This document shows, one piece after another, positions 4,835-7,157 of a DNA stretch of 22,219 nt. The stretch comes from Candidatus Methylomirabilales bacterium (GTDB lineage: Bacteria > Methylomirabilota > Methylomirabilia > Methylomirabilales > CSP1-5): contig JBHIAH010000042.1 of the NCBI GenBank assembly GCA_046758505.1, positions 1 to 22,219 of the forward strand, in the 5' to 3' direction. A program made the translations under genes and the position numbers. Numbering within the stretch: the first letter of the stretch is position 1; each line of letters starts with the position of its first letter. Below the pieces are notes generated by a model. It was given only the letters and a program-made list of their open reading frames with translations, was not told the DNA's origin and made no database searches.

Positions 4835-5851
4835 TCAGTTCCAGTGGCCCTTGGGTACCGTCACCCATCCTCCGAAGGCCTCCCGCGCCTCCCGATAGAA
4901 GGCCTCCGTCTCCCCCTGGTATCGCGGAGAAAAGTGAAAGAGCGCCAGTCGCCGAACGTCCGCCTCCCGCGCGATGAGTCCTGCTTGCTTCGCGGTGAGG
5001 TGAGACCGCTCTGCCGCCAGCGATGCGTCCCGGTCGAGGTAGGCCGCCTCGCAATACAGGACGTCCGCCCCCTTGACTAACGCCACGATGCGTGCCACGT
5101 TCTCGGGGGCGTAGAGGGCGTCGGTCACGTACGCCAGCTTCTGCCCCGGGGTGATATTGACCAGGGCGGCCTTGAGCTCCCCGAGCGCAAAGGTCTCTGG
5201 CCGGCCCCCCGGCGACTCCACCACGATCCGGTCCTTGTCAGAGACCCCCGCCCGGATCTTCGCCTTGAGGTCTGAAAGCCAGGGTCCGACCGGCAACTGG
5301 AGATCCGCAAGCCGCGTCTTGTCAATATTGATGTGAAAGGGCTCTTCGACGGCGAAAGCCAGACAGGGGATCTGATGATCGAGATGCGCTGCCCGGACGC
5401 GGAAGCCAGGCTCACCCCAGAGGTCACCCGCAAAGGCACGCGGCGCCAGGTCGCGGCGCCGGAAGGCCTCCGCGCAGGCAAAGCGCGCTCCCCGAATAGA
5501 GTCGAGATCAACTTCGAAGACTTCGAGACAGAGGGGGTAGCCCTGGACCAGGTTCCAGGTGTAACCGCGAAGTTTCCCCTCCACGTTCCCGATCATCCCC
5601 CGGGGCCCAAAGAGGCTCAGGATACGATCACGGCCGAGGACCGTCCGGAGGAGGTGATCAAAACCGACAAAGTGGTCGAGGTGGGTATGGGACACGAAGA
5701 CCTCGCTCACGCGGAGGAGGTCGCCGGATCGCAGGGGGGTAAGGGATCCCAGATCAAAGAGCAGGGCACGCCGGGCCCACCGGACCCGGACATAGAGAGC
5801 CGGATCGCCCCATGGGCCGTTGACCAATTGCATCTGAAAGGTAGGCTTCAT
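4835..5851 (-). CDS. rnz: Ribonuclease Z-like MBL-fold metallo-hydrolase
   Basis: 'SHTHLDHFVG' HxHxDH motif, exosite-like 'LPVGPWL' arm, 'AYVTD', 'CEAAY', 'HLTA' and 'HFSPRY'. Confidence 0.85.
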   Translation of the reverse strand: MKPTFQMQLVNGPWGDPALYVRVRWARRALLFDLGSLTPLRSGDLLRVSEVFVSHTHLDHFVGFDHLLRTVLGRDRILSLFGPRGMIGNVEGKLRGYTWNLVQGYPLCLEVFEVDLDSIRGARFACAEAFRRRDLAPRAFAGDLWGEPGFRVRAAHLDHQIPCLAFAVEEPFHINIDKTRLADLQLPVGPWLSDLKAKIRAGVSDKDRIVVESPGGRPETFALGELKAALVNITPGQKLAYVTDALYAPENVARIVALVKGADVLYCEAAYLDRDASLAAERSHLTAKQAGLIAREADVRRLALFHFSPRYQGETEAFYREAREAFGGWVTVPKGHWN

Positions 5852-5857
5852 GTCCGA

Positions 5858-5906
5858 AGCTGACAGCAGTCAGCAGTCCGCAGCAAGAGAGGCCCAGCGA
5901 TCAGCA
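5858..5906. repeat. Degenerate 7-bp tandem repeats (CAGCAGT/CAGCGAT type)
   Basis: gctgacagcagtcagcagtccgcagc...cagcgatcagca. Confidence 0.6.
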
Positions 5907-5924
5907 TTCCAACCCCCCTCATTG

Positions 5925-6515
5925 GAGCGAGGACGACAGCAAAGCCGAGGACGGCGGAAAAGACGGTAGCACGTTCGGCCCCTCCCTCCGCGCCTCCCGC
6001 GGCGACCCTTGTCGGCGGCTTACGCCCTGGGTCCCTCCGTGTTCACGATCCCTGCAAAGAAGATCGGCACGGATCGCGCCCCGGTTTCCCAGGCCGCCGC
6101 TCGCCGGGGGACCCCGCCGCTCCCGGCCATGTCGCTCGGGGCCTCCACGTGCTGCCTGAGAACAAAATGCGACTGGAGAGTCGGGCGTGTCTTCGGGAGG
6201 GCGAGGGGAGCTGGGCCTGGACCCGGCGGAACCTGGTTTGCGTCCGGCCGGGGTCCCGCCGCCGGAGCGCAGCGCAGGTGGGGGTGGCCGTCCTGCAGCC
6301 CGCTCGACCCGTCCGGCGTGGAAGTACCGGCACCCGCCAGAACTACCCATGGAATTGTTCCGCCGGGGAAGCCCCGCTCCCCGAGCCCTTCCGGGCACGG
6401 ATACGACGGGAGGCTTGGAGCGAGGGGCGTGCATGTGTTGCGCGACGGCGTGCAAACCAGTTTCCGCCCTTCTTGGCTTTGCTCCCCTGCCCCGTCTCGT
6501 GGCGGTCTTCGGACG
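5925..6515 (+). ncRNA. Candidate large structured non-coding RNA of unknown family
   Basis: End-to-end helices 5938-5960/6461-6483 (22 of 23 paired) and 5978-5999/6407-6428 (20 of 22 paired) enclose several internal stems. G-U pairs fall almost all on the + strand. A cUUCGg hairpin sits at 6505-6514. No credible ORF covers the region. Confidence 0.65.
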
Positions 6516-6516
6516 A

Positions 6517-6534
6517 CGGTCATCGGTCATCGGT
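6517..6534. repeat. 7-bp tandem repeat CGGTCAT (about 2.5 copies)
   Basis: cggtcat cggtcat cggt. The same unit recurs near 20080-20103. Confidence 0.6.
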
Positions 6535-6656
6535 AAATAGTTGGTACGGCTCTAATGCAAACGTATTAGATCTTGCGATAATGGAACAATAGAACATTAG
6601 ACCGCAATGGAGCATTTCTTCAGGATCACTCTATTGCTCCACCGCTCCATTCGTCC

Positions 6657-6685
6657 AAAGTAAACGCACAAAGTGCGTTTACTTT
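6657..6685 (-). terminator. Perfect 13-bp AT-rich hairpin directly after the stop codon of the 6684-7157 gene (probable terminator or binding site)
   Basis: AAAGTAAACGCAC-AAA-GTGCGTTTACTTT. It overlaps the TAA stop at 6684-6686. Confidence 0.6.
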
Positions 6686-7157
6686 ACCGGGGCCAGCCCA
6701 CGTACTGGCCATCCTCCCAGAGCTCGACCATCCGCTCCACGATGGACAGACGATCCTCAAAACGCTCGCTCTGGGAGAGCGATCGATCATGCGGCCAGAC
6801 CTCCTCCAGGAAGGGCCGGGCTTCTTCGGGAATCGCATAGTACGCTTCCCGAAGCTCGACGACCGTCCGGCGGTTGACCTGCTCGAGGTTGGAGACGGGG
6901 ACGATAAGGGGTTGGGGGTTGTCGTAGAGGCTCCGCCAGTGGACGCAATCTCTGAGGTTGGCGCCGACGAGATCTCGAGCAAGGCAGGCAAACTCCATAA
7001 ACCAGCCGATGGTTCGCTGGCACACCAGACACCCGGGACATTCGTCATCCAGGACAACGGGGAGGTAGGCTTCCGCTCGGAGGGGCCCTCCCGGTAGAAT
7101 CCAGTGGACCGACCGGCAGTGCCGGAAGCGCGCGTTGTTGGCGGTCAGCTCAGGCAT
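6684..7157 (-). CDS. Hypothetical Cys-containing protein (CPGCLVC); true start uncertain, possibly upstream of an in-frame UGA at 7200-7202
   Basis: Protein-like composition and a hairpin right after the stop. No RBS before the ATG at 7157. Confidence 0.65.
   Translation of the reverse strand: MPELTANNARFRHCRSVHWILPGGPLRAEAYLPVVLDDECPGCLVCQRTIGWFMEFACLARDLVGANLRDCVHWRSLYDNPQPLIVPVSNLEQVNRRTVVELREAYYAIPEEARPFLEEVWPHDRSLSQSERFEDRLSIVERMVELWEDGQYVGWPR

What the first reader, a model, noticed from the sequence alone, without database searches (positions are those of the whole stretch)
5925..6515. Candidate ~580-nt highly structured ncRNA of no recognisable family, next to rnz
Seen: the two ends pair as a long rod. 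AGCAAAGCCGAGGACGGCGGAAA (5938-5960) pairs with TTTCCGCCCTTCTTGGCTTTGCT (6461-6483), 22 of 23 positions. GCACG/CGTGC pair at 5969-5973/6449-6453. 5978-5999 pairs with 6407-6428, 20 of 22 positions. The rod encloses branched domains: GGCGA/TCGCC (6001/6101), CGGCGGC/GCCGCCG (6013/6093), CTGGG/CCCAG, TCCGTGTT/GGCACGGA (6036/6066), GGGACCCCG/CGGGGTCCC (6108/6249), GCCGGA/TCCGGC (6261/6312), CCGGC/GCCGG (6327/6362) and GCCC-TTCC-GGGC. A GTC-TTCG-GAC hairpin follows (6505-6514). About nine G-U wobbles fall on the + strand against about one on the - strand, which points to selection on a + strand single-stranded fold, opposite to both neighbouring genes. Established knowledge: it lacks the signatures of RNase P RNA (GAGGAAAGUCC), tmRNA ends, the SRP loop and group II intron domain V. 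Inference: a novel large ncRNA of OLE/ROOL/GOLLD size class, or a structured non-autonomous element. A possible + strand promoter TTGACC-N16-TAGGCT lies at 5820-5847 inside the start of rnz.
Basis: partly seen in the sequence, partly recalled or inferred. Interest (0 to 1): 0.88.

Follow-up and report, generated by a model that had tools for sequence, protein, structure and literature searches.

The report
Mosaic of conserved hairpin repeat elements
The folded stretch next to rnz is not one large RNA gene but an inserted patchwork of hairpin-forming repeat modules that occur in many copies in one genus of NC10 (Methylomirabilota) bacteria and are unusually well conserved.

Summary
No Rfam family matches. 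It is not a single-copy ~580-nt RNA.

Window 5968-6445 is built from repeated modules:
- A: 188 nt, 5968-6155.
- B: 200 nt, 6194-6393, which contains a 65-nt core, C.
- An inverted partial A end: 6407-6442.

Module A occurs 2-26 times per genome in all 13 other genomes of this genus. It was found in none of 52 other genomes of the order.

At the rnz locus only G000 and G002 carry the element; nine other species have both flanks but no element.

Each module folds alone as an imperfect palindrome with covariation. Wobble pairs favour the minus strand for A and the plus strand for B, which argues against one long transcript.

Orthologous A copies are 91-94% identical where neighbouring third codon positions are 54-69%, and one double change in the terminal stem restores pairing at an orthologous locus.

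Best reading: an undescribed REP/ERIC/MITE-like family of mobile, selectively maintained structured repeats. The mobilising enzyme and the function are unknown.

The parts
4835..5851 (-). Its start codon faces the element.
   Evidence: ORF. Pfam Lactamase_B_2, E 3.4e-13. Only the superfamily is shown; RNase Z identity was not tested.
5861..5967 (.).
   Evidence: Only the self-match in the own genome. 5933-5967 is conserved in the G002 orthologue (31 of 35); 5873-5932 is absent there.
5968..6155 (-). Module A: a 188-nt imperfect palindrome (rod) with a fast-evolving apical loop. Pairing favours the minus strand.
   Evidence: 12-14 copies in G000. 60-copy alignment. 51 pairs: 98.0% of cells paired on the - strand, 90.8% for the same pairs on the + strand, 13 pairs with changes on both sides. 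Covariance model hits in 13 of 13 genus genomes.
6156..6193 (.). Spacer between modules A and B; poorly conserved.
   Evidence: 17 of 33 aligned positions identical to G002, against 88% in A and 91% in B. No other match in G000.
6194..6393 (+). Module B: a 200-nt imperfect palindrome closed by 6194-6216/6371-6393, with variable inner segments. Pairing favours the plus strand.
   Evidence: I3. 24 full copies. Consensus fold -65.5 kcal/mol; 56 pairs, 94.8% of cells paired, 11 pairs with changes on both sides, 0 of 500 shuffles as high. On the + strand fold: 103 G.U against 15 A.C cells.
6225..6289 (+). Module C: a 65-nt core inside B that also occurs alone. Its inner hairpin exists in three different sequence versions.
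   Evidence: 28 matches in G000. 43 distinct copies aligned.
6407..6442 (-).
   Evidence: I2. 5 matches in G000, each beside a copy of A. Not kept as a helix in the consensus fold of 17 long copies.
6446..6539 (.). Locus-specific DNA on the 3' side. It holds the outer 3' arm (6461-6483), an inverted copy of the start of module C (6452-6468), the small hairpin 6505-6514, and two 7-base repeat units (6517-6534).
   Evidence: I1, I4. Absent from the G002 orthologue. The 7-base repeat occurs at 13 other places in G000.
6540..6683 (.). Older intergenic DNA shared with species that lack the element. It is AT-rich and holds a perfect 13-bp palindrome (6657-6685) that overlaps the stop codon of the next gene.
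   Evidence: G005 and G010 orthologues match from about 6520-6542 onward. (I5, I9). GC 0.48.
6684..7157 (-). Flanking gene of 157 aa with no Pfam family; its 3' end faces the element.
   Evidence: Identity to G002 by codon position is 0.88/0.91/0.68.

Best explanation
Window 5861-6539 is a lineage-specific insertion between the rnz-like gene and the next gene. Its core (5968-6445) is a patchwork of members of multicopy, genus-restricted families of hairpin-forming intergenic repeats. It holds module A (188 nt), a variable spacer, module B (200 nt, built round the 65-nt module C) and an inverted partial A end. Each module folds on its own into an imperfect-palindrome rod. The apparent 580-nt rod arises because these nested palindromes, plus locus-specific inverted sequence at the edges, lie side by side.

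Shown:
- The family is multicopy and restricted to one genus.
- Filled and empty sites exist at orthologous loci.
- Each module has its own covariation.
- The two modules prefer opposite strands.
- Sequence conservation at orthologous loci is much stronger than at neighbouring third codon positions.

Inferred:
- The modules spread rarely by a transposition-like step that passes through a single-stranded form, because changes shared by several copies keep G.U or G.T pairing on one strand only.
- Once inserted, they are kept by selection as structured elements, in the manner of REP, ERIC or Correia elements. They would act either as RNA when co-transcribed or as single-stranded DNA sites for a protein.
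- The enzyme is not identified. The 12 Y1 (HUH) transposase-like genes of the genome are candidates without direct support.
For: Multicopy:
- 40 matches to 5860-6560 in the own genome; coverage is 4-30 fold over 5968-6440 and 1 fold outside it.
- Per-module counts in G000: A ends 12, A middle 14, B ends 8, C 28, inverted A end 5.

Distribution:
- DNA search: 13 of 13 other genomes of the genus and 0 of 1 in the sister genus. Elsewhere in the order there were only two marginal hits, in 2 of 6 genomes of genus g5 (E 5e-5 and 2.9e-4).
- Covariance model of A: 14 of 66 genomes of the order, all of them in the genus, with 2-26 copies each.
Of the 80 record titles shown, most name Methylomirabilota or NC10 CSP1-5 genomes.

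Mobility:
- At the rnz locus, G000 and G002 carry the element. G001, G003, G005, G006, G008, G009, G010, G012 and G013 have both flanks on one contig, 26-312 nt apart, without it.
- At the C35 locus only G000 has module A; 11 other species have gaps of 47-298 nt.
- Metagenome contigs join 5860 to 6540 and 5851 to 6690.

Structure:
- A: 51 pairs, 98.0% of cells paired, 13 pairs and 51 cells changed on both sides, 0 of 500 shuffles as high; slid controls give 36-41% paired.
- B: 56 pairs, 94.8% paired, 11 pairs changed on both sides.

Polarity:
- In A, G.U-type variants seen in 2 or more copies occur at 18 pairs, against 2 pairs for A.C-type. Variants seen once are 10 against 10.

Constraint in place:
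- At the C16 locus, orthologous A copies in four species are 90.7-93.6% identical, while third codon positions of the two flanking genes are 54-69%.
- The apical loop and both flanks are unalignable there. The terminal stem shows a change on both sides in G000, with G001 carrying the intermediate state.
- At the window locus against G002: A 88%, B 91%, spacer 52%, third codon positions 68%.

Not coding:
- No three-base periodicity (p 0.43 for A, 0.69 for B); single-base indels fall in 20 columns of A.
- ORFs across the element have no Pfam family.
Against: - No target-site duplication could be defined. The flanks of 60 copies share no short direct repeat, and the empty sites are filled with species-specific 7-base repeats that blur the junctions.
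- No autonomous partner was found. The two ends of A are always about 130 nt apart, and a search for the A terminus with up to 3 mismatches found only A copies and scattered chance sites.
- The 12 Y1 transposase-like genes carry their own unrelated flanking inverted repeats and show no A, B or C module within 800 nt.
- Slow evolution at orthologous sites is unlike a decaying selfish element. It fits a functional RNA or protein-binding site equally well.
- Gene conversion among copies was not excluded, although orthologues (91-94%) are more alike than paralogues (84-90%).
- The copies in the A alignment were retrieved with an exact 19-mer, so invariance there is by construction. Related copies are also not independent.
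Confidence: 0.75

Rival explanations
1. Modules A and B are families of genuine structured RNAs that happen to be mobile, as HEARO RNAs were before their protein partner was known. Each copy would be transcribed and act as RNA, for example as a processing or stability element or as a protein scaffold.
For: - Covariation and a strand-specific wobble pattern.
- Conserved unpaired stretches inside the rods.
- Conservation at orthologous loci equal to second codon positions, plus an in-place compensatory change.
- One contig of a soil metatranscriptome covers 6188-6295 with 2 differences.
Against: - Orientation relative to flanking genes is mixed: in tandem gene contexts, 3 copies of A have the preferred strand in sense and 5 in antisense.
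- No shared promoter-like flank: upstream and downstream flanks fall into several unrelated types.
- A and B prefer opposite strands although they sit in a fixed order in the long form.
- No recurrent neighbouring protein among 113 flanking ORFs. The neighbours are unrelated housekeeping genes.
- Apical loops show no complementarity to their flanks (6.05 against 6.09 in controls).
- The single RNA-library contig may be DNA carry-over.
Confidence: 0.2
2. The region is one single-copy, novel large ncRNA of about 580 nt, read from the + strand and closed by the 5938-5960/6461-6483 rod.
For: - The outer rod pairs 22 of 23 positions if wobbles are counted.
- The fold z-score is -3.76.
- No known Rfam family matches.
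Against: - The core is multicopy.
- The 3' outer arm is absent in the G002 orthologue.
- Nine other species lack the whole element at this locus.
- The minus strand folds as well or better.
- The consensus of 17 long copies is two independent rods.
Confidence: 0.02
3. The modules are double-stranded DNA sites for a nucleoid or recombination protein. Their palindromic form would reflect dimer binding, not single-strand folding.
For: - Strong sequence conservation that includes positions drawn as unpaired.
- No orientation bias relative to genes.
Against: A double-stranded site gives no reason for shared variants to keep G.U or G.T pairing on one strand only: 18 pairs against 2 in A and 103 against 15 cells in B. 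It also gives no reason for compensatory changes along a 188-nt rod.
Confidence: 0.05

Closest known systems
ERIC (enterobacterial repetitive intergenic consensus) elements; properties recalled from memory, not checked in a paper here
   Same: - Imperfect palindromes of more than 100 nt that lie in intergenic DNA.
- Copy number differs strongly between related species.
- Longer and shorter forms arise by internal insertions and deletions.
- Sequence is surprisingly conserved between species.
   Different: - No sequence similarity, and a different phylum.
- Here several modules combine into units of up to about 470 nt.
- Two modules show opposite strand preference.
REP/REPIN elements with RAYT (Y1 HUH) transposases; properties recalled from memory
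   Same: - Hairpin repeats in intergenic DNA that persist at orthologous sites.
- A single-stranded, strand-specific substrate would explain the wobble asymmetry.
- The genome holds 12 Y1_Tnp genes.
   Different: - Module A (188 nt) and module B (200 nt) are much larger than REP doublets.
- Copy numbers are tens, not hundreds.
- None of the Y1 genes is flanked by A, B or C.
Bacterial MITEs and mosaic intergenic repeats (Correia/NEMIS, BOX, BIME, NIME); properties recalled from memory
   Same: - Non-coding and small, with terminal inverted repeats.
- Dispersed, with insertion differences between relatives.
- Modular combination of sub-elements.
   Different: - No target-site duplication and no parent insertion sequence were found.
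- Copies do not decay at the neutral rate.
Large or multicopy structured bacterial RNAs (OLE, ROOL, GOLLD, HEARO)
   Same: - The long form is in the same size class.
- Secondary structure with covariation.
- HEARO is also multicopy and mobile (recalled).
   Different: - No Rfam match.
- No associated ORF.
- No evidence of a defined transcript.
- Copy number ranges from 2 to 26 within one genus.

Membership tests
MITE (non-autonomous transposon) | Small, non-coding, multicopy and dispersed | tested here: met
   Modules of 65-200 nt and composites up to about 470 nt. No coding signal. 2-26 copies of A per genome.
MITE (non-autonomous transposon) | Terminal inverted repeats | tested here: met
   The ends of A pair with each other (helices 1-2). 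B is closed by a 23-nt inverted repeat.
MITE (non-autonomous transposon) | Target-site duplication | tested here: inconclusive
   The flanks of 60 copies show no common direct repeat. Junctions at empty sites are obscured by 7-base repeat arrays.
MITE (non-autonomous transposon) | Insertion polymorphism at orthologous sites | tested here: met
   rnz locus: filled in 2 species, empty in 9. C35 locus: filled in 1, empty in 11.
MITE (non-autonomous transposon) | A parent insertion sequence with the same ends and a transposase | tested here: not met
   None found in G000, which is 96.8% complete. Other genomes were not searched for it.
REP/REPIN-RAYT system | A RAYT gene flanked by the same repeats | tested here: not met
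   12 Y1_Tnp genes. Their flanks hold other, AT-rich inverted repeats and no A, B or C module.
REP/REPIN-RAYT system | Short palindromic units of 20-40 nt, or doublets of about 70-110 nt | tested here: not met
   A is 188 nt and B is 200 nt. Only C (65 nt) is in that range.
Known Rfam RNA family (OLE, ROOL, GOLLD, HEARO, group II intron, RNase P, tmRNA, SRP) | A match to the family covariance model | tested here: not met
   0 matches at gathering score over the window. No relevant match at E<=10 over 5700-6800.
Stand-alone ncRNA gene | A defined transcript with its own promoter and terminator | not testable with these tools
   Only one RNA-library contig, kept as an assembled contig, touches 6188-6295. 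No sigma-70-like site was found. Flanks are not conserved among copies.

The most novel reading that the evidence does not exclude
Modules A and B are a new kind of host-maintained structured nucleic acid. They would be multicopy rods whose sequence and pairing are kept at each locus by selection as strongly as second codon positions. They would act either as RNA, for example as processing or stability elements or as a scaffold for an unknown protein, or as strand-specific single-stranded DNA sites for domesticated Y1 HUH enzymes. On this reading they are not merely selfish DNA.
Probability: 0.3. Interest if true: 0.6.

Novelty: new member of a known kind. Interest (0 to 1): 0.35.

Why it matters
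It removes a false candidate for a new large RNA class and shows how such a candidate arises: nested palindromic repeats lying side by side imitate one long branched rod.

What remains is an uncatalogued repeat family in an uncultured NC10 lineage with three uncommon properties:
- It is conserved better than the neighbouring protein-coding third codon positions.
- It shows compensatory change at an orthologous locus.
- Its modules have opposite strand polarity.

If the constraint is host-level, the family is a tractable case for asking what long hairpin repeats do in bacteria. The repeats also break assemblies and could serve as markers for this genus.

Tried and rejected
- **Rfam** at gathering score and at E<=10: nothing relevant.
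- **Protein-coding reading.** Translations across the element are Arg/Pro/Gly-rich and have no Pfam family. There is no codon periodicity, and single-base indels are scattered.
- **Guide-like reading of the variable apical loop.** The longest shared word between a loop and its own flanks averages 6.05, against 6.09 for other copies' flanks.
- **Associated protein.** 113 ORFs flanking 33 copies gave only a few unrelated paralogue pairs. The Pfam families of 16 neighbours are unrelated housekeeping functions.
- **TnpB:** no match in G000.
- **Y1 transposases as the partner:** no shared repeats.
- **Viral contigs:** 0 matches to the A pattern.
- **Expression.**
  - Of 23 runs listed, one is an RNA run. 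Laid down, it gave one 235-nt contig over 6188-6295 and nothing elsewhere. Contigs cannot show strand, ends or level, so transcription remains open.
  - No cover by that run over the rest of the stretch is not evidence of silence.
- **Papers.**
  - Three searches on Methylomirabilis, NC10 or CSP1-5 with repeat, MITE or structured-RNA terms found no description of these elements. I saw search listings and abstract starts only.
  - A search for an ERIC evolution paper found nothing usable, so all statements about ERIC, REP and MITE properties are recalled.
- **Consensus fold of the A alignment on the + strand** gave a weak, different structure (-33.8 kcal/mol). I set it aside for the minus-strand rod (-72.3 and -72.5).
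- **Rows dropped.**
  - Of 62 full-length A references I aligned 60, leaving out L051 and L063, which carry insertions of about 30 nt.
  - For the B fold I left out L168 (a 30-nt insertion) and two G000 copies that are not held as loci.

Full report
**Observation**

- The repeat finder reports arms 5938-5960/6461-6483, 5978-5999/6407-6428, 6194-6216/6371-6393 and 6103-6116/6249-6262.
- The short helices I checked against the printed sequence lie where stated.
- The 596-nt stretch folds to -324.1 kcal/mol on the + strand (z -3.76) and -325.3 on the - strand (z -5.37). No shuffle out of 100 did as well on either strand.
- Rfam gives nothing at gathering thresholds for the window, and only three chance-level hits outside the element at E<=10.
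- ORFs across the region translate to Arg/Pro/Gly-rich strings without Pfam families.
- The claimed + strand excess of wobble pairs is not seen in the whole folds: 14 against 13 G.U pairs. The four long repeat pairs hold 4 G.T on + and none on -.
- The proposed promoter does not pass the sigma-70 scan.

**The region is repeated DNA**

- A search of the window's own genome (G000, 3.0 Mb, 149 contigs, 96.8% complete) with 5860-6560 gave 40 matches.
- Coverage along the query is 1 outside 5968-6440 and 4 to 30 inside.
- Splitting the region into pieces shows separable modules:
  - Module A, 5968-6155. Its ends have 12 matches in G000 and its middle 14. It also occurs alone as a 188-nt unit.
  - Module B, 6194-6393. 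Its ends have 8 matches.
  - A 65-nt core C inside B, 6225-6289, with 28 matches, often alone.
  - An inverted partial copy of the 5' end of A, 6407-6442, with 5 matches.
- The spacer 6156-6193 and the stretches 5861-5967 and 6446-6539 have no other copy, apart from a short 7-base tandem repeat at 6517-6534.
- In other copies A is flanked by further recurrent modules. About 13 of 60 share one upstream flank type, and at least 6 of 60 have an inverted C directly after A.

**Taxon and distribution**

Of these, 103 hold module A by BLAST.
- Of the 80 record titles shown, most name Candidatus Methylomirabilota or candidate division NC10 bacterium CSP1-5 genomes. One bin labelled Nitrospirae also carries module A.
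- By DNA search the family is in 13 of 13 other genomes of the genus and 0 of 1 of the sister genus. There are only two marginal hits elsewhere in the order.
- A covariance model of A found it in 14 of 66 genomes of the order, all in the genus. Copy numbers run from 2 to 26, and some matches are about 100 nt long, that is, shortened derivatives.
- The genus tallies include the unpublished genome G007. Without it they read 12 of 12.
- Viral contigs hold no match.

**Mobility**

- At the rnz locus the element is present in G000 and G002 only. G001, G003, G005, G006, G008, G009, G010, G012 and G013 have both flanking genes on one contig, 26 to 312 nt apart, and no element. G011's contig ends there.
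- In G002 the filled site keeps 5933-6420 but lacks 5873-5932 and 6421-6646.
- At a second locus (G000 contig C35, a lone A plus another module) only G000 is filled, and 11 other species are empty.
- Contigs of a metagenome that also holds the window join 5860 to 6540 and 5851 to 6690.
- Exact junctions and target-site duplications could not be read. The empty sites are filled with species-specific arrays of 7-base repeats, a feature of this genome that earlier notes of the scan had described.

**Structure and strand**

Module A:
- I aligned 60 full-length copies of A.
- The minus strand (relative to the window) folds better in 59 of 60 copies. The mean is -107.9 against -95.0 kcal/mol, and the consensus fold is -72.3 against -33.8.
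- The minus-strand rod has 51 pairs:
  - 98.0% of cells form standard pairs.
  - 13 pairs and 51 cells are changed on both sides.
  - No shuffle out of 500 reaches the observed values.
  - Slid controls give 36-41% paired.
- The same pairs read on the + strand give 90.8%.
- The difference is wobble against A.C: 234 against 14 cells.
  - Variants shared by two or more copies are G.U-type at 18 pairs and A.C-type at 2.
  - Variants seen once are 10 against 10.
  - Private mutations therefore look symmetric, and propagated ones keep pairing on one strand.

Module B:
- B behaves the opposite way. Its + strand consensus fold is -50.4 against -24.8 kcal/mol in 24 copies, with 103 G.U against 15 A.C cells.
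- In 21 copies: 56 pairs, 94.8% paired, 11 pairs changed on both sides.
- The inner hairpin of C exists in three unrelated sequence versions at the same position.

Long copies:
- Seventeen long copies fold equally well on both strands. Their consensus is two separate rods, A and B, without the long-range helix 5978-5999/6407-6428.

Caveats:
- The A copies were retrieved with a fixed 19-mer.
- Related copies are not independent.
- The structures were predicted on the strand they favour.

**Constraint at orthologous loci**

- At the C16 locus, A sits between a UvrD/PcrA-type helicase gene and gatC in G000, G002, G001, G005 and G008.
- The four orthologous A copies there are 90.7-93.6% identical to G000's. 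The flanking genes are 84-95% identical at first and second codon positions and 54-69% at third positions.
- In the alignment, conservation starts and stops at the ends of A. The apical loop differs in every species.
- The terminal stem carries a change on both sides in G000, with G001 showing the one-sided intermediate.
- At the window locus against G002: A 88%, B 91%, spacer 52%, third codon positions of the downstream gene 68%.
- Orthologues are somewhat more alike than paralogues (84-90%). This argues against complete homogenisation by gene conversion but does not exclude some.

**What it is not**

- There is no reading frame signal.
- No protein family recurs next to the copies. The neighbours are unrelated housekeeping genes.
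- Orientation relative to neighbouring genes is mixed.
- The variable loops are not complementary to their flanks.
- G000 has no TnpB.
- It has 12 Y1_Tnp genes of 228-335 aa. Several are bracketed by their own short AT-rich inverted repeats, and one repeat type is itself multicopy. None is near or similar to A, B or C.

**Expression**

Only one of the 23 listed runs is an RNA library. It yields a single 235-nt contig over 6188-6295. This cannot show strand, ends or level, so transcription stays open.

**Interpretation**

- The thing in the window is an inserted composite of repeat modules, not a dedicated large RNA gene.
- It works most like REP, ERIC, Correia or MITE elements: hairpin repeats that spread within a lineage and then persist.
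- Two results go beyond the usual picture and keep a functional reading alive. These are the strand-specific pairing of propagated variants, which points to a single-stranded intermediate or product, and the slow evolution with compensatory change at orthologous sites.
- The opposite polarity of A and B argues against one long functional transcript.
- Statements on the properties of ERIC, REP/RAYT, MITE and HEARO are recalled, not read here. My four paper searches showed listings and abstract starts only, and nothing on these elements.
- Earlier notes of this scan describe similar cases on other DNA. They agree in kind but are not evidence for this locus.

Noticed in passing
window 6517-6534; also orthologous spacers in L144-L152 and L182-L190: Two units of a 7-base tandem repeat sit here, and the same 18-mer occurs at 13 other places in G000. 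The orthologous intergenic spacers of other species are filled with different, species-specific 7-base arrays.
   Followed up: partly
G000 contigs C14, C3, C31, C35, C70, C28, C6, C9 (x2), C25, C13 (loci L139-L142): Twelve Y1_Tnp (PF01797) matches, eleven of which lie in called ORFs of 228-335 aa. Several genes are bracketed by short AT-rich inverted repeats. The repeat type beside the C70 gene is found at about a dozen other places, an arrangement like a RAYT gene with its REPs. It is unrelated to modules A, B and C.
   Followed up: partly
window 6657-6685: A perfect 13-bp palindrome with a 3-nt loop overlaps the stop codon of the 6684-7157 gene. It is shared with G002 and absent from the other species aligned. 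It may be a terminator readable in both directions.
   Followed up: no
window 6540-6650: An AT-rich stretch (GC 0.48) with an inverted repeat at 6582-6593/6630-6641. Summed contig depth there is 4-6 fold higher than on the flanking genes in one metagenome, which suggests a further repeat.
   Followed up: no
loci L039, L107, L077, L113, L074, L091, L061, L124, L037, L110, L095, L024, L096 (left flank of module A): About 13 of 60 A copies share a conserved 30-nt flank just before the module. Its reverse complement shares 12 bases with the 3' part of module B. This is a further module of the mosaic.
   Followed up: no
G013:C73:6682-6781, G001:C102:22118-22217 and similar matches: Matches about 100 nt long cover the whole 188-position model of A at 65-78 bits. 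They are shortened derivatives that keep both ends.
   Followed up: no
L003, L191, L196, L193, L195 (C16 locus): At one orthologous site G000 and G002 carry the long form (A, spacer, B). G001 and G008 keep A plus the start of B, and G005 keeps only A. Long and short forms therefore interconvert in place.
   Followed up: partly
L062 (record titled as a Nitrospirae bin): This contig carries module A at 86% identity, although the family is otherwise confined to the NC10 CSP1-5-like genus. The contig may be mis-binned.
   Followed up: no
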